DNA of 64,000 nucleotides from Maritalea sp. GTDB taxonomy: Bacteria; Pseudomonadota; Alphaproteobacteria; Rhizobiales; Devosiaceae. Below the pieces are notes generated by a model. That model saw only the letters and a program-made list of their open reading frames with translations, was not told where the DNA came from and made no database searches. The translations under genes and the position numbers were made by a program. Location of the stretch: assembly GCF_051251695.1 (NCBI RefSeq), contig NZ_JBPOEU010000013.1, forward strand, positions 37,924-101,923, in the 5' to 3' direction. Positions 3 to 43,117 of the stretch are shown here, piece after piece; the stretch's first letter is position 1, and each line of letters starts with the position of its first letter.

Positions 3-995
3 ACTTCTGGCGACCTTGACTGGCATTTGAAAGCTGTTGCAACTGCAGACAGCGATTTCGGTCCAGCAATGGCTGTTATTAAGATTTCTGAAAAAGAAGA
101 CGATACATCACGCACCGGTGGTGCTGCAGGTGTAGCTCCAGCAACTTTGACCGCAACTGCTAATGATGTTGTGTTGGAAGAAGGCTATGTTGGTATCGGC
201 GACGCTTCTTCAGTTGTTCTTTATGCTGGTAAAAAAGGCTCAGTTGCTAAAGAAGACGACGACGAAACATTTACAGCAATCTTCGCTCTTGACTCACTTG
301 GTCTATCTGGCGATGCAGCTGGTTCTGACGAAGGTCTAGCACTTGGCGGCGGCGTTGCAACTGGTGGTTATGTTGTTCAAATGTCTGCAAGCCTTGGTGA
401 TGGCGTAAACGCTGTTGTTGCTCTTGAAGATCTTGGTACAGTGAACAATGCTTCTTTGGTTGGCGCTATCGGTGTTAAGCAAGATTGGGGCACTGCACAC
501 GCTACGTTCATTCTTGACGATCTAATTCAAGCTGCAAACGTATGGTCACTTCATACTGGTGCAACTTTCAATGTTGACACAGTGAGCTTCCGTGCTGCTT
601 TCGAAACAGCTAGCGATAGCACATGGTCAGCTTTGCTTTCTGGTAAAGCAACATTTGACATGTTCACATTGGCAGCTGGCGTTGAATTCGATAACGCAAG
701 CCAGTGGGAAGCTGCTGTTTCAGGCGTAGCTAAAGTTGATGACACTACTACATTGACTATTGCTGGTCGTTTCGACGACAACAACGACTGGGATGTTGCT
801 TTGAAAGGCGCGTTTAAAGTATCTGATACTTTGACTGCTTCTGCTAAAGTTAACTTCGACGAAGCAAGTGTTACCAAATTCGAGGGTGACATTGACTGGA
901 TGCCAGGTGGCGGTGCTACTGTTAATGTTGGCTTCAATGCTGACAGCACAGGTCAAACAACTGTTTCTACAAAATTCAAGAAAACATTCGAATAG
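3..995 (+). CDS. Outer-membrane porin (alphaproteobacterial beta-barrel), 5'-truncated by the window edge
   Basis: The frame is open from position 3 (TSGDLDWHLKAVATADSDFGPA...). Alternating amphipathic beta-strand pattern with terminal aromatic residues, codon bias typical of a highly expressed gene, and a strong terminator downstream. Confidence 0.75.
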   Translation, partial: TSGDLDWHLKAVATADSDFGPAMAVIKISEKEDDTSRTGGAAGVAPATLTATANDVVLEEGYVGIGDASSVVLYAGKKGSVAKEDDDETFTAIFALDSLGLSGDAAGSDEGLALGGGVATGGYVVQMSASLGDGVNAVVALEDLGTVNNASLVGAIGVKQDWGTAHATFILDDLIQAANVWSLHTGATFNVDTVSFRAAFETASDSTWSALLSGKATFDMFTLAAGVEFDNASQWEAAVSGVAKVDDTTTLTIAGRFDDNNDWDVALKGAFKVSDTLTASAKVNFDEASVTKFEGDIDWMPGGGATVNVGFNADSTGQTTVSTKFKKTFE

Positions 996-1026
996 TCCTT
1001 TAGGGCAATTTGATTTTGAGTTTGAG

Positions 1027-1054
1027 AAAGCCCGGCATAAGCCGGGCTTTTTTT
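1027..1054 (+). terminator. Rho-independent terminator of the porin gene
   Basis: AAAGCCCGGC-ATAA-GCCGGGCTTT hairpin followed by a T run. Confidence 0.9.
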
Positions 1055-1257
1055 GTGTCTAGTGGGAACCGAACACGAAATTGTTGACAGTCCACTTGAT
1101 TGTCAGAAAATGCTGGTACGAAAAGTATTTGTGCTTAAGATTCTTTCCCAACCGAATGTGTCAACAAGTTAAGCGGGCGGCGGCTTGATTGATACAGAAC
1201 TGCACCAGCTGCGGTAAATTGTACGAATTTGATGCGCCCAGCGGAGTAGCTTGCCAA

Positions 1258-4200
1258 ATGGGATCGATAAAACGTGTGAAATGGTTCACTCTGCTGATTG
1301 CGGGGGTGCTAACCATTGGTGTGGGCAGTGCTGTAGCTGTTTGGCAAACACAGGCATATGTTGAAGCCGAACTCAACGCTGGCGTCAGCGAAAAGCTCCA
1401 CAAGTTTGGGCATAAATGGACTAGCGTCGATGTTGTGGGCCGCGATGTCACAATTTCTGGTCTAAGCACCAACACTGCTGAAATTGATGAAATCACCAAA
1501 CTTGTAGCCGCGCATAATGGTGTTCGTAGTGTCAGTTTAGATATTCAAGTTGCACCAAAGATGGAGCCCTTCAAACTCTCGCTTTCCCAAGACGGCAAGT
1601 CTCGTTCAATGGTTGGCGGTATGCCAAATGATCACGTGACCAAACAAGTCACAGATTGGTTTGGAGAGGGCGACGTGTCTTTGGCGTTGGCGTCAGGCAG
1701 CCCCAGACCAAGTGATTGGCGCGATGCAAGTCAGTTTGCAATTCGGCTGTTGCAGCATTTTGATCAGGGCAATGTAGAAGTTGAAGGCCTGACCGTTTCC
1801 ATGGCGGGACGGGCTAAAGACCATGACGCCTACCACACTCTTGATGTTGTGTTTGGGGCTGGGTTTCCGGACAATTTGGTGCGTGGCAGTGGTGAGATTA
1901 TTCCGCCGCTCGTAGCTCCGTATGAGCTGTCAGGTCAAAAAAGCTCGCAAGGTAATTTGTCTCTTGAAGGAAATGTTCACTCACAGCCAGCAAAAGCAGA
2001 ATTAAGGGAAGCTGGGTTAGACGTTGCAAACTTACAAATCAGTTCAGGCGCACCGAAAGACTTTGAGAACTCTTTGGGTTTGCTCGTGAAATCGCTTGAT
2101 GAGCTTTTGAATGGCGAATTCTCGATCTCTGATGACCGCATACAAATTCAAGGTGAAGTGCCGAACTTTGAGGTTTATGACGATGTTAGCGGGTTGGGTG
2201 ACCAACTGGGTGCATTCAATGTAACGGTAAATCTCGAGAGGCCAGTAATCCAGCCATTTACATTGAAGCTTGAGTTGCGCGATCAACAAATGGTTGTTTC
2301 GGGGTATGTGCCCAGCGAAGAAGGTTTGGCCAAACTGCAAATGGCATCAATGCCAGTAGACGTGTCTAAAGTCAGAGTAGCCCGCGGTGCGCCAGAGCAA
2401 TTTGAAACTGCCACCGAAATGTTAGTGGATGCATTAGGCCATTTATATGATGGTGCTTCGGCAGAGATCGAAGATCAAAAAATTGTTGTGCAAGGAAAAG
2501 CAATTACACCGCAGGACTTTTTGGCGCTCCAAGAAAAGTTTGGCACCCAAATCCCGGACGGATATGACCTCGCCATAGCCAGCATCGAACTGCCGACCGT
2601 GTCGCCATATTCCTGGTCTCTGACCAAAGAGACGACAGATCGAGTTCGGATGGCCGGATATTCGCCATCAAAACAATTCAACTCCCAAGTTTTGCAGCAG
2701 CTTAATGGCGTTAAGTTGATGGATGAGACTTTGCCAGCCATCGGGCAACCGGCTGAATTTGAAACGGTAGCAATTGCGAGCGCCGCTGCTTCAAACCATA
2801 TGGTTGAAGGGCAGGTAATCCTGAATGATGGGCAATGGTCCCTTGCTTCGACGATTGCCAATAAAGAGATGAAAAACAACATCTTTACAGAGTTTTCTAA
2901 TAAAGGGATTAAAGTTGAAAGTTGGCAAGCCCAATTCACAGAACTAGCGCCACCTGTAGCAAAACCGTATCGATTTAGTGCCGTTTGGACCAATGAAGCT
3001 GAATTTTCGTTTGATGGTTATGTGCCAAATGAAGATCTGCAATTGCTTCTTTTGGGCATGGGCACTTCAAACGTCAGCCTAGCGAGTGGCGAACCTGATC
3101 GTTTTGAAGAAATCGCCAATATTGGCATTTCTGCACTTCAACAATTGGAAGAAGGTGAGTTTGGTTTTGACGGCGAACGTTGGCATATTTCGGGTACGGC
3201 AACCGATACGCAAACAGTAGAAAAAATCAAAAATGACCTAGGCGATTTTACGGCTGATGGTTCCGGTTGGACCATTGAGTTGACTGCGCGGATTGTTCCG
3301 GTGGTCCCATATATTTGGTCCGCACAGAAATCCAAAGACGCCGACATTGTCGTCAGTGGTTATGCACCGGAACAGGCTGTGATCGACGAATGGATGGCAT
3401 TGCCCAATGTATCTGGGCAACCAAAAATTGGTGTTGGTGCGCCTGACGAGTTTCAATCCCGTGCGAACGTTGCGCTAAGTAGTTTGCAGGAACTAGAAAC
3501 AGGACGCGCCAGTCTTTCTGGGAATACCTGGTCGCTGATTGGTCGTGCTAAATCTGATCAAGCCCTTGAAAATATGATGAAAATTTTGACGCCGTTCAGC
3601 TCGTCATTCCGACTGGATGTTCATGTTGTACAACCGATAGACCAACTCATCTTTTCAGCCGAACAGACAGAAAACGGTCTAATATCATATACCGGATATT
3701 TGGATGACCCCTTGTCGTGGAAGAAAACGCCGGACAATAGAGCGCTGTTCATTGGAAAAGTAATTGAAGAGCGTGAGCCATTTGTCGCACGGATCGAAAA
3801 CGGTCTAGCCGCCGTCCAGATGTTAAACTTCGGACGCCTTTCGTATGATGGGACCGCTTGGAAAATTGAAGGTGAGGTCGCTGACAAAGCGATTGCAGCG
3901 GCGGTGAAACTAACGCTCGGTGACGACGAAGATCCTGTTTGGATGGTGAACTTGTCCAACGCAGAAGTCAAAGCGAAAGCAAAAGCCGAAGCGGACGAGA
4001 AGGAACGTATGGAAGCAGAAGCCAAAGCGAAGGCTGATGCAGAGGAAAGTGCGCGCATTGAAGCTGAAACAAAAGCAATAGCCGCCGAAGAAGCAAGATT
4101 GGAAGCCGAAGCCAGGGCTAAGGCAGAGGCAGAGGCTGAGGCTGAAGAGAAGTTGCGCTTGGAGGCTGAAACGCAGGCAATAGCTGCCGAAAAGGCAAGG

Positions 4201-5343: not shown

Positions 5344-6042
5344 ATGAATGCACCACATCTAATTGAAATTGCGCTGCTAATGCTGGCAGCATTTCTTATC
5401 GGTTGTTTAATCGGATATTTTTTGCGCCGTTTGATGGGCGGTAACGCCCCTGCATCATCTCCATCAAATCAGGCAACGGCCGCTTCCAGTTCTGTTGACA
5501 GCACGGTTGAGAAAACCAGCACCACAACGACCACCGACACCAAAGCTACAGCAAAAAAGGCTCCAGCAGCCAAAAAACCAGTAGCCAAAAAGGTCGCGCC
5601 AGCAAAGTCGTCGGCTTCAAAAGTTGCAACTGCTAAACCTGCGGCCACTAAACCTGCTGCAGCGCGCAAGACTGCGCCTAAAAGCACAGCGATGGCGAAA
5701 AAAGCGACTGCACCAAAGGCTGCCGCTAAACCTACTTCGGCGACCAAACCAGCGGCTGCTAAGAAACCAACCGCAGCAAAAGCAACGGTGGCAACTGACG
5801 GCAAACCAGCGACCTTAACGGCTCCAAAAGGTGGCAAGAAGGACGATCTAAAAACAATCAAGGGTGTGGGACCCAAGATTGAAGGCACCTTGAATAGCAT
5901 GGGCATATATCACTATGACCAAGTCGCTTCATGGGGTGTTAAAGAGGTGAAGTGGGTTGATGAGGAACTGTCTTTTAAAGGTCGAATAGACCGCGAAAAG
6001 TGGGTTTCTCAAGCCAAGCAATTGGCCAAAGACGCAACATAG
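5344..6042 (+). CDS. Membrane-anchored protein with a Lys/Ala/Pro-rich linker and a C-terminal helix-hairpin-helix domain (type found at the C-terminus of some alphaproteobacterial NuoE)
   Basis: N-terminal TM followed by RR, then a low-complexity KKAPAAKK linker, then KDDLKTIKGVGPKIEGTLNSMGIYHYDQVASW...FKGRIDREKWVSQAK. Confidence 0.75.
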   Translation: MNAPHLIEIALLMLAAFLIGCLIGYFLRRLMGGNAPASSPSNQATAASSSVDSTVEKTSTTTTTDTKATAKKAPAAKKPVAKKVAPAKSSASKVATAKPAATKPAAARKTAPKSTAMAKKATAPKAAAKPTSATKPAAAKKPTAAKATVATDGKPATLTAPKGGKKDDLKTIKGVGPKIEGTLNSMGIYHYDQVASWGVKEVKWVDEELSFKGRIDREKWVSQAKQLAKDAT

Positions 6043-32510: not shown

Positions 32511-32978
32511 ATGCGCTGCCCATATTGCGGTAATCACGATACGCAAGTGAAGGATTCTCGGCCAACCGAGGATTCTAACGCGATCCGTCGCCGCCGAGTT
32601 TGCTCGGCGTGCGGTGGGCGGTTCACCACGTTTGAACGTGTGCAATTGCGCGAGCTGATTGTCAGCAAAAAATCGGGCCGCAAAGTGCCTTTTGATCGCG
32701 AGAAACTCACGCGATCAATCAAAACCGCTCTTCGCAAACGCGAAGTCGATGCAGAAGCTGCAGATCGAATGATCTCTGGCGTGGTGCGTCGGCTCGAAAG
32801 CATTGGCGAAAACGAAATCACCTCAGAGCAAATTGGCCAACTGGTTATGGAGGGCCTTAAAGAGCTCGATGATGTGGCCTTTGTTCGGTTTGCCTCCGTT
32901 TATAAGAATTTTTCCAAAGCAGATGATTTCAAATCCTTCCTTTCCCAGCTTGATGCCGGAAGTAAGGAAGACGAGTAG
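32511..32978 (+). CDS. nrdR: Transcriptional repressor NrdR
   Basis: MRCPYC...DSR...RRRR.C..C..RFTTFE followed by an ATP-cone. Confidence 0.97.
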
Positions 32979-32989
32979 TTGGGCGGACT

Positions 32990-33165
32990 AAGGTCCAGCT
33001 TGACGCTATTTCTTCCTGTTTCAATGAGGCATTTTATAAAGTACGCCCCATTAATCGGGGGCAGGCAAATGCGGCCTTGCAAATGTGGGCAATGAGATAA
33101 ACATTGAAATTGATCATGCGGCGCGATATGCAGCCAGCTTGATCGCAATGAACTATGCTCGCTAA
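32990..33165 (+). pseudogene. ribE: Degraded 3' remnant of riboflavin synthase (ribE)
   Basis: 33076-33165 translates LANVGNEINIEIDHAARYAASL...*, matching the RibE C-terminal VGD.VNLE.D..ARY..RL motif. A weaker upstream motif in another frame (32993: VQLDAISSCFNE, similar to VALDGISLTVNE) is collinear. No start codon; located at the canonical ribE position. Confidence 0.7.
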
Positions 33166-33185
33166 TTCGCAATTTGAGGACCAAA

Positions 33186-33638
33186 ATGACAGATAAGCCA
33201 AGTATTTTGCTCATAGAAGCGCGCAATTATGAAGAACTTGCCGACGAGTTGGCAACAGGCGCCATGGAAGTTTTGGACGAAGCAGGCGCTGTTGTGACAC
33301 GTATTTCTGTCCCCGGCGTACTCGATATACCCAGCGCGCTATCGATGGCGCTTATTGGTGCAGAAGTTGCTGATGCTGATGTTTACGATGGTTATGTCTT
33401 GCTTGGCGTGGTTATTCGATCTGAAACATCCCGCTATGAGATTGTCGCAAATGAGAGCGCACGCGCAATTATGAGCATGGTGACGTCTGAAGGCTTAGCC
33501 TTAGGTAATGGTATTCAAACTGTGGAAAACCAAGACCAAGCGCGGGGTCGGGTTAAACGAACCAACAAAAATAACGGCGCAGATGCCGCCAGAACAGCAC
33601 TTGCCATGATCGACGTGAAAAAGAAGTTTGGATTGTAA
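33186..33638 (+). CDS. ribH: Lumazine synthase homologue with degenerate active-site motifs
   Basis: RibH1-like backbone (VPG...IP, LG.VIR.ET, NES.RA, GNGI.TVEN..QA) between nrdR and nusB; RBS GAGGA precedes ATG 33186. Confidence 0.85.
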   Translation: MTDKPSILLIEARNYEELADELATGAMEVLDEAGAVVTRISVPGVLDIPSALSMALIGAEVADADVYDGYVLLGVVIRSETSRYEIVANESARAIMSMVTSEGLALGNGIQTVENQDQARGRVKRTNKNNGADAARTALAMIDVKKKFGL

Positions 33639-33641
33639 GAG

Positions 33642-34124
33642 ATGAACGAAGATAAACAACAACGTTCGCCCGGACAGGCCAATCAGCGCGGCGCGGCGCG
33701 TCTAGCTGCGGTGCAAGCGCTTTATCAAATGGATATCGGCCGAAGTTCGCTTGAGGCGACTTTGACCCAGTTTGACATGTTTTATTTGGGTAAAGAAGTA
33801 GAGGGAGACGAGTATCTCCCTGCGGACAAAGACTATTTCACCCAAATCCTAAAAGGCGTGAAAGCGCATCAGCTCAAGATTGATCCAATAGTCGATAATT
33901 CACTGGTTGAAGGTTGGCCCGTTACTCGAATCGATAGTACACTCCGTGCGATCCTGCGTTCTGCAGCGTTCGAATTATTGTACAAAAAAGATGTTCCCGT
34001 ACGTGTAGTCATCACTGAATATGTCGATGTTGCACGGGCGTTTTTCGAAAAAGATCAACCTGCCATGGTCAATGGCGTTTTGCATAATATTGCGCAGATA
34101 TTTAGACCAGACGAACTGAAATAA
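33642..34124 (+). CDS. nusB: Transcription antitermination factor NusB
   Basis: RGAARLAAVQALYQMD, RAILRSAAFEL and VNGVL motifs. Confidence 0.96.
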   Translation: MNEDKQQRSPGQANQRGAARLAAVQALYQMDIGRSSLEATLTQFDMFYLGKEVEGDEYLPADKDYFTQILKGVKAHQLKIDPIVDNSLVEGWPVTRIDSTLRAILRSAAFELLYKKDVPVRVVITEYVDVARAFFEKDQPAMVNGVLHNIAQIFRPDELK

Positions 34125-34139: not shown

Positions 34140-35351
34140 ATGACTGAGCCCGAATTTAATAAAGAAAAAAATGCGGGCCGAAACATCGGGCTCTTGGCTT
34201 TAACGCAGGCTGTCGGCGGCTCTAGCCAAGCTATCGTTATGGCTGTTGGTGCGCTTACTGCCGCAAATCTAGCCACAGATAAAAGCCTAGCAACACTTCC
34301 AACAACAGCAATGATTATCGGTTTGGCCCTTATGGCCGGACCAGCAACAAAAATCATCTATTCGATTGGACGTCGAAATGGATTTTTGGTGGGCGCAGGA
34401 CTAGGGGTGATTGCGGGATTGGCCGCCGCCGCCGCCGTTACTTTGTCATCCTTTATTTTGTTCGCCTTGGCACTTTCCATTGTTGGAATGGGTGCGTCAT
34501 TTACCCAACAATACCGTTTTGCCATTGCCGATAGTGTGCCTGATGGCATGAAGGCGCGTGCCATCTCTTTGGTTCTGCTTGGCGGTGTTGCTGCAGGCTT
34601 TTTTGGGCCAAGACTTTCTTACATTTCAAAGGACTGGTTGGGCGGGGTTGAATTTGCAGGCTCGTTTTTGATCATCTCGTTTCTATCGATCGCGGCGATC
34701 GTTTTGCTTTCACAAACCAAACTTGCCCCGATTGTGAAGCCAAAAGTAGGGGATGCCAAAGGCCGGTCGGCCATGGCACTGATCAAAGTGCCTGAAATCG
34801 GCATTCCGATCCTAACAGGAATGATTTCGTACGCGCTGATGACGTTTGTCATGGTTGCTGCACCTTTGGCCATGGTTCATGTGTGCGGTCACTCTGCGGA
34901 ACAAGCAACCACAACAATTCAGTGGCATATTATTGCAATGTTCGCGCCCAGTTTGGTCACCGGTAACATCATCAATCGTATTGGCGCTCACGCAACGGTA
35001 GGCATAGGTCTTGTGTTGATTCTCATCTGCGCGTTGATCAACCTCAACGGCGTATCAGTTACCCATTTTGATGCCGCTTTGATCATGCTCGGTGTGGGCT
35101 GGAACTTCGGGTTTATCGGCTCGACAACGTTGTTGTCTCAGGCTTACCGTCCAGAGGAAGCCTCAACTGCTCAGGGCCTAAACGAGCCGTTGGTGTTCGG
35201 TTCAATGGCTGTCGCTTCAATTAGCTCAGGCGTTTTGTTGAATACGTTGGGTTGGCAATCAATCAACGTGATGGTGTTGCCAATCGTCACAGCAGCGCTT
35301 GCCCTGCTGGCGTGGGGCGATTATCGCCAGCGCAAGCTTCGCACCCAATAA
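34140..35351 (+). CDS. rfnT: MFS transporter, probable riboflavin transporter RfnT
   Basis: 12-TM MFS (QQYRFAIAD, GWNFGFIG). It occupies the position after nusB where RfnT is encoded in Rhizobiales rib operons. The substrate is assigned from synteny only. Confidence 0.6.
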   Translation: MTEPEFNKEKNAGRNIGLLALTQAVGGSSQAIVMAVGALTAANLATDKSLATLPTTAMIIGLALMAGPATKIIYSIGRRNGFLVGAGLGVIAGLAAAAAVTLSSFILFALALSIVGMGASFTQQYRFAIADSVPDGMKARAISLVLLGGVAAGFFGPRLSYISKDWLGGVEFAGSFLIISFLSIAAIVLLSQTKLAPIVKPKVGDAKGRSAMALIKVPEIGIPILTGMISYALMTFVMVAAPLAMVHVCGHSAEQATTTIQWHIIAMFAPSLVTGNIINRIGAHATVGIGLVLILICALINLNGVSVTHFDAALIMLGVGWNFGFIGSTTLLSQAYRPEEASTAQGLNEPLVFGSMAVASISSGVLLNTLGWQSINVMVLPIVTAALALLAWGDYRQRKLRTQ

Positions 35352-43040: not shown

Positions 43041-43117
43041 TGGTCGGAGTGGCCAGATTTGAACTGACGACCCTCTGTCCCCCAGACAGATGCGCTACCA
43101 GGCTGCGCTACACCCCG
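43041..43117 (-). tRNA. tRNA-Pro(GGG)
   Basis: Reverse complement CGGGGTGTAGCGCAGCCTGGTAGCGCATCTGTCTGGGGGACAGAGGGTCGTCAGTTCAAATCTGGCCACTCCGACCA folds as a cloverleaf with anticodon GGG, TTC T-loop and encoded CCA. Confidence 0.97.

What the first reader, a model, noticed from the sequence alone, without database searches (positions are those of the whole stretch)
33186..33638. Lumazine synthase with an intact ORF but a dismantled active site
Seen (B. subtilis numbering, aligned by eye): F22->N (ARNY; codon 33225-27), A56->V and E58->D (PGVLDIP), G84->S and catalytic H88->R (IRSETSRY; codon 33432-34), K135->N (NKNNG). R127 is retained. There is no stop or frameshift, and the RBS is good. Known: F22 stacks the pyrimidine substrate, H88 is the proton donor, and RibH forms pentamers or icosahedral shells. 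Inference: either a pseudoenzyme kept for translational coupling to nusB, or a repurposed flavin/lumazine-binding protein or nanocompartment acting with the downstream transporter.
Basis: partly seen in the sequence, partly recalled or inferred. Interest (0 to 1): 0.75.

Follow-up and report, generated by a model that had tools for sequence, protein, structure and literature searches.

The report
Dead lumazine synthase kept before nusB
In one Maritalea genome that has deleted most of its vitamin B2 pathway, the leftover lumazine synthase gene has lost its substrate-binding residues but is still kept as an intact, well-conserved protein, most likely because the next gene, nusB, is translated off its stop codon.

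Summary
The ORF at 33186-33638 is a RibH1-type lumazine synthase, closest to Brucella RibH1. The equivalents of F22, E58, G84, T87, H88 and K135 are replaced and R127 is kept. All these changes are private to this genome: 118 homologues, including congeners 68-77% identical, keep the consensus. A56V is a subfamily trait, not damage.

The gene is stranded. ribD and most of ribE are deleted beside it, and ribBA is deleted cleanly elsewhere, so no DHBP synthase remains. A horizontally acquired ribH2-ribE-ribA-ribD cluster carries a nonsense codon in ribH2. A RibN-like importer behind an FMN riboswitch, and ribF, remain.

This is not uniform decay. On this lineage omega rose from 0.007 to 0.41 at 16 active-site codons and from 0.047 to 0.41 in helix 118-137. 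The other 116 codons stay near background (0.068 against 0.045).

Best reading: a catalytically dead pseudoenzyme whose ORF and fold are still selected. The probable reason is that nusB starts 3 nt after the ribH stop, without a usable SD, in all relatives.

The downstream MFS is a CalT-type copper importer, not a riboflavin partner.

This rests on a single lineage, and dS is near saturation. It is moderately interesting.

The parts
32511..32978 (+). nrdR, the first gene of the ancestral nrdR-ribD-ribE-ribH-nusB block
   Evidence: Pfam Zn_ribbon_NrdR plus ATP-cone. It is 94% identical to the congeners' nrdR, which abuts ribD there.
32979..33185 (+). Deletion scar where ribD (341 aa) and about 180 codons of ribE used to be. 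The last ~21 ribE codons survive at 33091-33165 (NEINIEIDHAARYAASLIAMNYAR*). The old stop is mutated to TAT (33154-56), and 5 of 14 formerly invariant residues are changed.
   Evidence: tblastn with a congener's RibE matches residues 166-201 at 33046-33153. Supported by the translation and nucleotide alignment and by synteny with L001-L004, G003, G005, G006 and G007.
33094..33116 (+). 23-nt stretch (GAGATAAACATTGAAATTGATCA) inside the ribE remnant. It is identical in this genome and six congeners, synonymous sites included. It may be a regulatory or promoter element for ribH-nusB; this is inference only.
   Evidence: Nucleotide alignment and motif search. The consensus promoter scan did not flag it.
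33176..33180 (+). Shine-Dalgarno GAGGA of ribH1, conserved in most congeners (GGGGA in meta1 and G005, absent in G006)
33186..33638 (+). ribH1*: a RibH1-type lumazine synthase homologue, 150 aa, with an intact ORF and its substrate-binding residues replaced
33225..33227 (+). Codon 14, AAT (Asn), where all relatives have Phe (B. subtilis F22, the ring-stacking residue). It differs by two nucleotide changes from TTT.
   Evidence: The W22A change at the equivalent site abolishes activity in Brucella RibH2 with the fold intact (PMC2828483).
33420..33440 (+). Loop S79-E80-T81-S82-R83-Y84-E85, which reads GETTHYD in relatives. G84S, T87S, H88R and D90E fall in the phosphate/proton-transfer loop.
33537..33596 (+). 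Helix region, residues 118-137 (QARGRVKRTNKNNGADAART against QAWARANRSEKNKGGGAAEA). R127-equivalent R122 is kept. The K135 equivalent is now N130. W120R, A121G, A123V, G132A, G133D and A137T also lie here. On this lineage omega is 0.41 against a background of 0.047.
33636..33644 (+). Coupling junction: ribH stop TAA (33636-38), then GAG, then nusB ATG (33642-44). There is no well-spaced SD.
   Evidence: The same stop-to-start geometry (2-3 nt apart, or overlapping) is seen in meta1, meta2, G003, G005, G006, G007, G010 and G013.
33642..34124 (+). nusB
   Evidence: Pfam NusB, 109 bits
34140..35351 (+). MFS transporter of the CcoA-like (CalT / 'RfnT-like') kind, probably a copper importer. It is not specific to the riboflavin loss.
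   Evidence: Pfam MFS_1. MxxxM at 234 and HxxxM at 263. Conserved after nusB in congeners. See PMC6362234.

Best explanation
ribH1* is a catalytically disabled lumazine synthase left behind when this Maritalea lineage dismantled its ancestral riboflavin pathway. Shown: ribD and most of ribE were deleted next to it. ribBA was deleted cleanly elsewhere, so no DHBP synthase remains to supply one of the enzyme's two substrates. Both substrate pockets of RibH1 have been rewritten: the F22, E58, G84, T87, H88 and K135 equivalents and the helix around R127. Also shown: the rest of the protein and the reading frame are still under purifying selection at close to the normal level. Inferred: the gene survives because it is the translated ORF that delivers ribosomes to nusB. 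nusB starts 3 nt after the ribH stop and has no usable SD of its own. A nonsense, frameshift or sloppy deletion would therefore cut NusB synthesis, and a constantly translated product must still fold harmlessly. Riboflavin is presumably imported through the RibN-like EamA permease behind an FMN riboswitch and converted by RibF. A likely order of events (inference): first, acquisition of an FMN-riboswitch ribH2-ribE-ribA-ribD cluster made RibH1 catalysis and ribDE redundant. Later, ribBA was lost and ribH2 acquired a nonsense codon.
For: The catalytic and substrate-binding residue changes are private to this genome, and their mapping is verified against 1rvv and 2f59. The ribDE deletion and ribE fossil are shown. 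PF00926 has no hit in this 99.5%-complete genome but is present in all 8 congeners. ribBA is missing exactly between conserved neighbours at C1:135336-135443, with no remnant. A second FMN riboswitch precedes an EamA/RibN-like gene that is conserved family-wide, including in relatives with no rib genes. ribF is present. In the codon branch model, with branch lengths fixed from six neighbouring genes, ribH omega is 0.135 on this lineage against 0.041 elsewhere (p = 1.8e-6), while the neighbours show 0.7-2.7x. Partitioned, the 16 active-site codons go from 0.007 to 0.41, helix 118-137 from 0.047 to 0.41, and the remaining 116 codons from 0.045 to 0.068 (CI 0.033-0.118, n.s.). Changes hit 7 of 15 invariant active-site columns against 5 of 67 other invariant columns (p = 8e-4). 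Private substitutions are more conservative than random mutation (BLOSUM62 +0.25 against -0.39, P = 0.04). The coupling geometry is conserved in all ribH-bearing relatives and is re-created with nrdR in G009. Loss of the position-22 aromatic residue alone abolishes activity in Brucella RibH2 (PMC2828483), and F22, H88, R127 and K135 are the recognised key residues (PMC12871164, PMC4735121).
Against: Only one genome carries this allele, so there is no clade-level conservation and no within-species polymorphism to test recent selection. Synonymous divergence on the lineage is high (dS about 0.7). A model with free branch lengths could not separate the omegas, so the result depends on borrowing branch lengths from neighbouring genes. 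The 16-site active-site list comes from the literature and from memory, and I drew it up after seeing the data. Coupling explains why the ORF stays open, but it does not easily explain scaffold constraint as strong as in working orthologues. Seven relatives removed ribH altogether and express nusB directly after nrdR or from a new leader, so ribH is not indispensable for nusB.
Confidence: 0.5

Rival explanations
1. Plain relic in early decay. The gene has no remaining role, the frame is open by luck, and the apparent scaffold constraint reflects how recently constraint was lost.
For: The pathway is gone. The allele is unique to one genome. Other Devosiaceae that lost the pathway also lost ribH. 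After about 40 neutral substitutions a 150-codon frame still has a 26% chance of carrying no stop. The own branch of RibH is about 3x longer than neighbouring genes predict.
Against: Relaxation is strongly uneven. With that much neutral time the chance of no stop falls to about 0.01-0.07 before counting indels. Substitutions are more conservative than random.
Confidence: 0.25
2. Repurposed protein. The lumazine synthase fold and pentamer are kept for a new non-catalytic or altered job, such as binding a different small molecule or partner. The pocket changes are then adaptive rather than drift.
For: Scaffold omega is indistinguishable from that of functional orthologues, while both pockets are rewritten. 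Several pocket codons took two or three nucleotide changes. R127-equivalent R122 and the GNGI/TVEN core are untouched.
Against: There is no second genome with this allele. Pocket omega is 0.41, not above 1. The aromatic residue that stacks flavin or pyrimidine rings is lost. No new partner gene has appeared in the neighbourhood, which is identical to that of congeners. The downstream MFS is a CalT-type copper importer (PMC6362234).
Confidence: 0.18
3. Still a working lumazine synthase with an unusual active site, serving the acquired ribA-ribD-ribE genes now that ribH2 carries a stop codon.
For: R127-equivalent R122 is retained. The acquired cluster on contig C69 has intact ribE, ribA and ribD above the NCBIfam cut-offs, while its ribH2 is interrupted. 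From memory of the B. subtilis mutagenesis literature, single active-site replacements often leave partial activity.
Against: No DHBP synthase gene exists in the genome, so one substrate is missing. Six pocket residues are replaced at once, including the position-22 aromatic residue whose loss alone kills Brucella RibH2 (PMC2828483). The score is below both NCBIfam equivalog cut-offs.
Confidence: 0.07

Closest known systems
Brucella RibH1 (PDB 2F59, 2I0F, 2O6H), the pentameric type I lumazine synthase of the Rhizobiales nrdR-ribDEH-nusB operon
   Same: Best solved-structure match (E = 2e-41, aligned end to end). Same subfamily, same operon position directly before nusB.
   Different: Brucella RibH1 keeps F, E, G, H and K at the pocket positions and is active in vivo (PMC2828483). 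The window protein has N, D, S, R and N there, and its genome lacks ribB, ribD and ribE at the ancestral loci.
Engineered Brucella RibH2 W22A (PMC2828483)
   Same: A lumazine synthase that loses activity through loss of the ring-stacking aromatic residue while its structure and stability stay intact. This is the state proposed here.
   Different: That mutant was made in the laboratory, carries a single change and is a type II enzyme. The window protein is a natural allele with about 12 changes at otherwise invariant positions.
Pathway erosion in vitamin auxotrophs, with retention of a salvage transporter (RibN; PMC4418817, PMC6362234)
   Same: Biosynthetic genes are deleted, while an FMN-riboswitch-controlled RibN-like importer and ribF are kept. 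Sister genera in Devosiaceae show the completed version of the same loss.
   Different: Here one biosynthetic gene is neither deleted nor broken. It is kept with site-specific relaxation.
Conserved ribH-nusB gene pair with stop-start translational coupling
   Same: The stop of ribH and the start of nusB are 2-3 nt apart or overlap in all relatives examined.
   Different: That coupling alone keeps a dead upstream gene alive is an inference here. I know of no described case for ribH.

Membership tests
[quoted passage not shown] | DMRL_synthase fold (PF00885) above the gathering score | tested here: met
   108.4 bits against 26.7, covering positions 3-138 of 139. Best PDB match is Brucella RibH1.
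[quoted passage not shown] | Reaches the curated equivalog score (NF000814 or TIGR00114) | tested here: not met
   122.5 against 174, and 73.6 against 84.6
[quoted passage not shown] | Key substrate and catalytic residues F22, H88, R127 and K135 (PMC12871164, PMC4735121) | tested here: not met
   The residues are N14, R83, R122 and N130, so three of the four are replaced. All 118 homologues examined keep them almost without exception.
[quoted passage not shown] | Substrate supply in the same genome (RibB for DHBP; RibA and RibD for the pyrimidine) | tested here: not met
   PF00926 has no hit and ribBA is cleanly deleted. The ancestral ribD is deleted. Only an acquired ribA and ribD exist, on contig C69.
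[quoted passage not shown] | Enzyme activity | not testable with these tools
   Needs an assay or complementation
Pseudoenzyme (dead enzyme kept by selection) | Catalytic residues lost while the fold-determining sequence and ORF are intact | tested here: met
Pseudoenzyme (dead enzyme kept by selection) | Purifying selection continues on the non-catalytic part | tested here: met
   For 116 scaffold codons omega is 0.068 (CI 0.033-0.118) against a background of 0.045. The pockets are at 0.41. Caveats: branch lengths are borrowed, dS is about 0.7, and there is only one lineage.
Pseudoenzyme (dead enzyme kept by selection) | The dead form is conserved across a clade of orthologues | tested here: not met
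   The nearest relatives (68-77% identical) are all canonical
Pseudoenzyme (dead enzyme kept by selection) | The protein is expressed | not testable with these tools
Unitary pseudogene (neutral relic) | Disrupted frame, or omega not different from 1 | tested here: not met
   The frame is open. Omega = 1 is rejected for the whole gene (p = 1e-28) and for the scaffold. Only the pocket codons approach neutrality (CI 0.19-0.83).
CalT / CcoA-like MFS copper importers (the downstream gene) | Single MxxxM and HxxxM motifs about 28 residues apart, in the ribH-nusB-calT-BamE-cytochrome bc1 chaperone neighbourhood (PMC6362234) | tested here: met
   MTFVM at 234 and HIIAM at 263. Neighbourhood.

The most novel reading that the evidence does not exclude
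The lumazine synthase scaffold is kept because it has taken on a job of its own after losing catalysis. One version is a pentameric binding or assembly protein with rewritten pockets. A bolder version is that, together with the acquired ribA-ribD-ribE genes, it condenses the pyrimidine with a carbon donor other than DHBP and so bypasses the missing RibB. Either would be the first natural lumazine synthase pseudoenzyme or neo-enzyme with evidence of selection.
Probability: 0.15. Interest if true: 0.7.

Novelty: new variant of a known kind. Interest (0 to 1): 0.45.

Why it matters
This is a clean natural snapshot of a vitamin pathway being taken apart. Sister species show the intact state and sister genera the fully erased state. 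It shows selection releasing only the substrate pockets of an enzyme while still holding its fold and reading frame. If the nusB-coupling explanation is right, operon architecture alone can preserve a dead gene as a translated spacer. That would be a caution for metabolic reconstruction: an annotated ribH here does not mean lumazine synthase activity. It would also be a testable example of how pseudoenzymes arise. Finally, it corrects the reading of the neighbouring MFS as a riboflavin transporter.

Tried and rejected
(1) A codon branch model with free branch lengths left synonymous change on the own branch undetermined (0.14-2.9 per codon across genes). Its omegas were therefore uninformative, and I replaced it with branch lengths fixed from six concatenated neighbouring genes.

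I counted private differences instead.

(4) I tried the ribE fossil as a neutral clock. Only about 21 codons are recognisable, and 23 nt of them are frozen at the nucleotide level, so it gives only a rough match: 5 of 14 invariant residues changed, against 7 of 15 at RibH pocket sites.

(5) I tested a sigma-70 promoter in the frozen 23-nt stretch (TTGAAA-17-TATGCA). The consensus scan does not report it, so I kept it only as a note.

(6) I tested the downstream MFS as the riboflavin transporter RfnT and rejected the idea (PMC6362234).

(7) I considered contig C69 as contamination, which is unlikely. Both its ends are inverted copies of a 73-77-nt repeat that sits at several contig ends in this assembly and in congener G003. 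However, no relative carries the cluster, and its nearest homologues are Rhodobacteraceae-like.

(8) I looked for a clade of similarly damaged RibH proteins. There is none among the 120 best of 833 homologues.

Full report
**What is there.** The ORF at 33186-33638 (+) encodes 150 aa. It has a GAGGA Shine-Dalgarno 5 nt upstream and no stop or frameshift. It is a DMRL_synthase (PF00885, 108 bits). Its best solved relative is Brucella RibH1, the pentameric type I enzyme of the Rhizobiales rib operon (E = 2e-41). It nevertheless falls below both NCBIfam equivalog cut-offs: 122.5 against 174, and 73.6 against 84.6.

**The residue map.**
- F22 is now N14 (AAT, 33225-27).
- E58 is now D47.
- G84 is now S79.
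- H88 is now R83 (CGC, 33432-34).
- K135 is now N130.
- R127 is kept as R122.

Further changes are T87S, D90E, W120R, A121G, A123V, G132A, G133D and A137T. A56V is not damage, because every relative with an intact pathway also reads PGVLEIP.

**The changes are private and far beyond chance.** Of 833 homologues, the nearest are 68-77% identical and all keep the consensus residues. The window protein deviates at 9 of 62 columns that are >=95% conserved. In 118 homologues the mean is 0.45 and the maximum 4. Against eight relatives it differs at 12 of 82 otherwise invariant columns. Eleven neighbouring genes together differ at 33 of 1661 (p = 4e-7).

**Who and where.** The genome is a Maritalea (Devosiaceae). 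The assembly is 3.7 Mb in 114 contigs and 99.5% complete. A tree from 11 neighbouring genes places it as sister to a clade of seven Maritalea genomes or contigs. All seven carry hemB / DUF6163 / MarR / YkuD / DUF6898 / glyA / nrdR / ribD / ribE / ribH / nusB / MFS / BamE in perfect synteny.

**The pathway around the gene is dismantled.**
- In the window, nrdR ends at 32978 and ribH starts at 33186. ribD and about 180 codons of ribE are gone. The last ~21 ribE codons survive at 33091-33165, with the stop mutated and 5 of 14 invariant residues changed.
- DHBP synthase (PF00926) has no hit in the genome but is present in all eight congeners.
- At the syntenic site, ribBA is missing exactly between conserved neighbours (C1:135336-135443) and has left no remnant.
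- Two FMN riboswitches exist. One precedes an EamA/RibN-like permease, which is conserved across the family, including in genera with no rib genes.
- The other heads a ribH2-ribE-ribA-ribD cluster on contig C69. No relative has this cluster. Its nearest homologues are Rhodobacteraceae-like, at 76-78%, and a metagenomic contig with different flanks reaches 89%.
- Contig C69 is bounded by inverted copies of a repeat found at other contig ends in this assembly. It therefore looks like an acquired, mobile insert rather than contamination.
- The ribH2 in that cluster reads MTHT*YAFIKANWH where homologues read MTHTRYAFIKANWH, a CGA->TGA nonsense change at codon 5.
- ribF is present.

With no RibB, neither lumazine synthase has its four-carbon substrate. 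The organism is predicted to import riboflavin.

**Relatives show the end states.** The G001/G002/G004/G008 subclade of the genus lacks the whole ribDEH block at this locus and carries another rib cluster elsewhere. G009, G012 and G014 lack rib genes altogether, and their nusB directly follows nrdR; G011 also lacks rib genes, but no nusB match was found in it. The window genome is therefore an intermediate in a loss that recurs in this family.

**Is it drifting or held?**
- A codon model with free branch lengths was uninformative, because synonymous change is near saturation.
- I then fixed branch lengths in proportion to those of six concatenated neighbouring genes (own-branch dS about 0.71). 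ribH omega on this lineage is 0.135 against 0.041 elsewhere (p = 1.8e-6) and far from 1 (p = 1e-28). The neighbouring genes show 0.7-2.7x.
- The amino-acid branch is about 3x longer than the neighbours predict.
- The rise is not uniform. The 16 canonical pocket codons go from 0.007 to 0.41 (CI 0.19-0.83). Non-pocket codons of helix 118-137 go from 0.047 to 0.41. The other 116 codons go from 0.045 to 0.068 (CI 0.033-0.118; not significant).
- Pocket columns changed 7 of 15, against 5 of 67 for other invariant columns (p = 8e-4).
- Private substitutions are milder than random single-nucleotide mutations (P = 0.04).
- A single episode of complete relaxation cannot produce both values. The pocket figure implies roughly 0.2-0.8 of the branch without catalytic constraint, and the scaffold figure implies only a few per cent.
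- Over that much neutral time an open 150-codon frame would be unlikely, about 0.01-0.07 before counting indels.

**Why it is kept.** In this genome and in every ribH-bearing relative, the ribH stop lies 2-3 nt before the nusB ATG or overlaps it, and there is no well-spaced SD. In G009 the deletion of ribDEH re-created the same geometry with nrdR. The G001 clade instead has a new leader carrying its own GGAAGAG. This supports translational coupling as the force that keeps the frame open.

Coupling does not fully explain scaffold constraint as tight as in working enzymes. A need for harmless folding of a constantly made protein, or a genuine second function, is needed on top.

**The downstream transporter is not involved.** The MFS after nusB is conserved in congeners with intact rib genes, and no riboswitch precedes it. 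It has the single MxxxM (234) and HxxxM (263) motifs of CalT copper importers. Proteins in this exact neighbourhood were shown to import Cu, not riboflavin (PMC6362234).

**Known biology used.** W22A at the equivalent aromatic position abolishes Brucella RibH2 activity without altering structure (PMC2828483). F22, H88, R127 and K135 are the recognised key residues (PMC12871164, PMC4735121). The wider 16-site pocket list, and the statement that single replacements in the B. subtilis enzyme can leave partial activity, are from memory.

**Verdict.** The pseudoenzyme reading and the nusB link are supported, and the transporter link is not. The case rests on one lineage with high synonymous divergence, borrowed branch lengths and no expression data. 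I rate the explanation at about 0.5 and the interest as moderate.

Noticed in passing
window 33094-33116: A 23-nt stretch in the 3' end of ribE (GAGATAAACATTGAAATTGATCA) is identical at synonymous sites in six congeners, and it survives in the deletion scar here. It may be a regulatory or promoter element for ribH-nusB. The consensus promoter scan did not flag it.
   Followed up: partly
genome contig C69 (= L005) 234-3209: An FMN riboswitch (110.8 bits) heads a type II ribH2, ribE, ribA and ribD cluster that is absent from all 25 relatives. Its nearest homologues are Rhodobacteraceae-like. ribH2 has a CGA->TGA nonsense codon at position 5, while the other three genes look intact. The cluster has no ribB.
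   Followed up: partly
genome contig C69 ends (1-73 and 5757-5829), plus ends of C19, C67, C61, C55, C65 and C41: Inverted copies of a 73-77-nt repeat bound contig C69 and recur at several contig ends. The repeat is 100% identical in congener G003. It is probably the terminus of a multi-copy insertion sequence, so the acquired rib cluster sits in a mobile context next to a RelE/ParE-family toxin gene.
   Followed up: partly
genome contig C29:2573-3757 (= L006 1501-2688): An FMN riboswitch (115 bits) is followed by a 305-aa EamA transporter, a RibN-like candidate riboflavin importer. It is 92% identical in congeners and is present in the Devosiaceae genera that have no rib genes.
   Followed up: partly
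genome contig C1:135336-135443: ribBA (388 aa in M. porphyrae) has been excised cleanly between two conserved neighbours, leaving about 107 nt and no recognisable remnant.
   Followed up: yes
window 34140-35351: The MFS after nusB carries one MxxxM (234) and one HxxxM (263) motif and sits in the ribH-nusB-MFS-BamE-cytochrome bc1 chaperone neighbourhood. It is therefore a CalT/CcoA-like copper importer, not the riboflavin transporter 'RfnT' (PMC6362234).
   Followed up: yes
L053-L059 (G001, G002, G004, G008, G009, G012, G014): The ribDEH block has been lost repeatedly in Devosiaceae. One Maritalea subclade replaced it with a ribE-ribBA-ribH cluster elsewhere, whose RibH is only about 30% identical. 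Four other genera have no ribB, ribE or ribH at all. The G001 subclade has a conserved ~45-nt element (TTAAACTTTTTTGTCGCATTGTGCG...TATGCGC) in the new nrdR-nusB spacer.
   Followed up: partly
window 43044-43117 (-): A tRNA gene is the only Rfam hit above the gathering score in the window.
   Followed up: no
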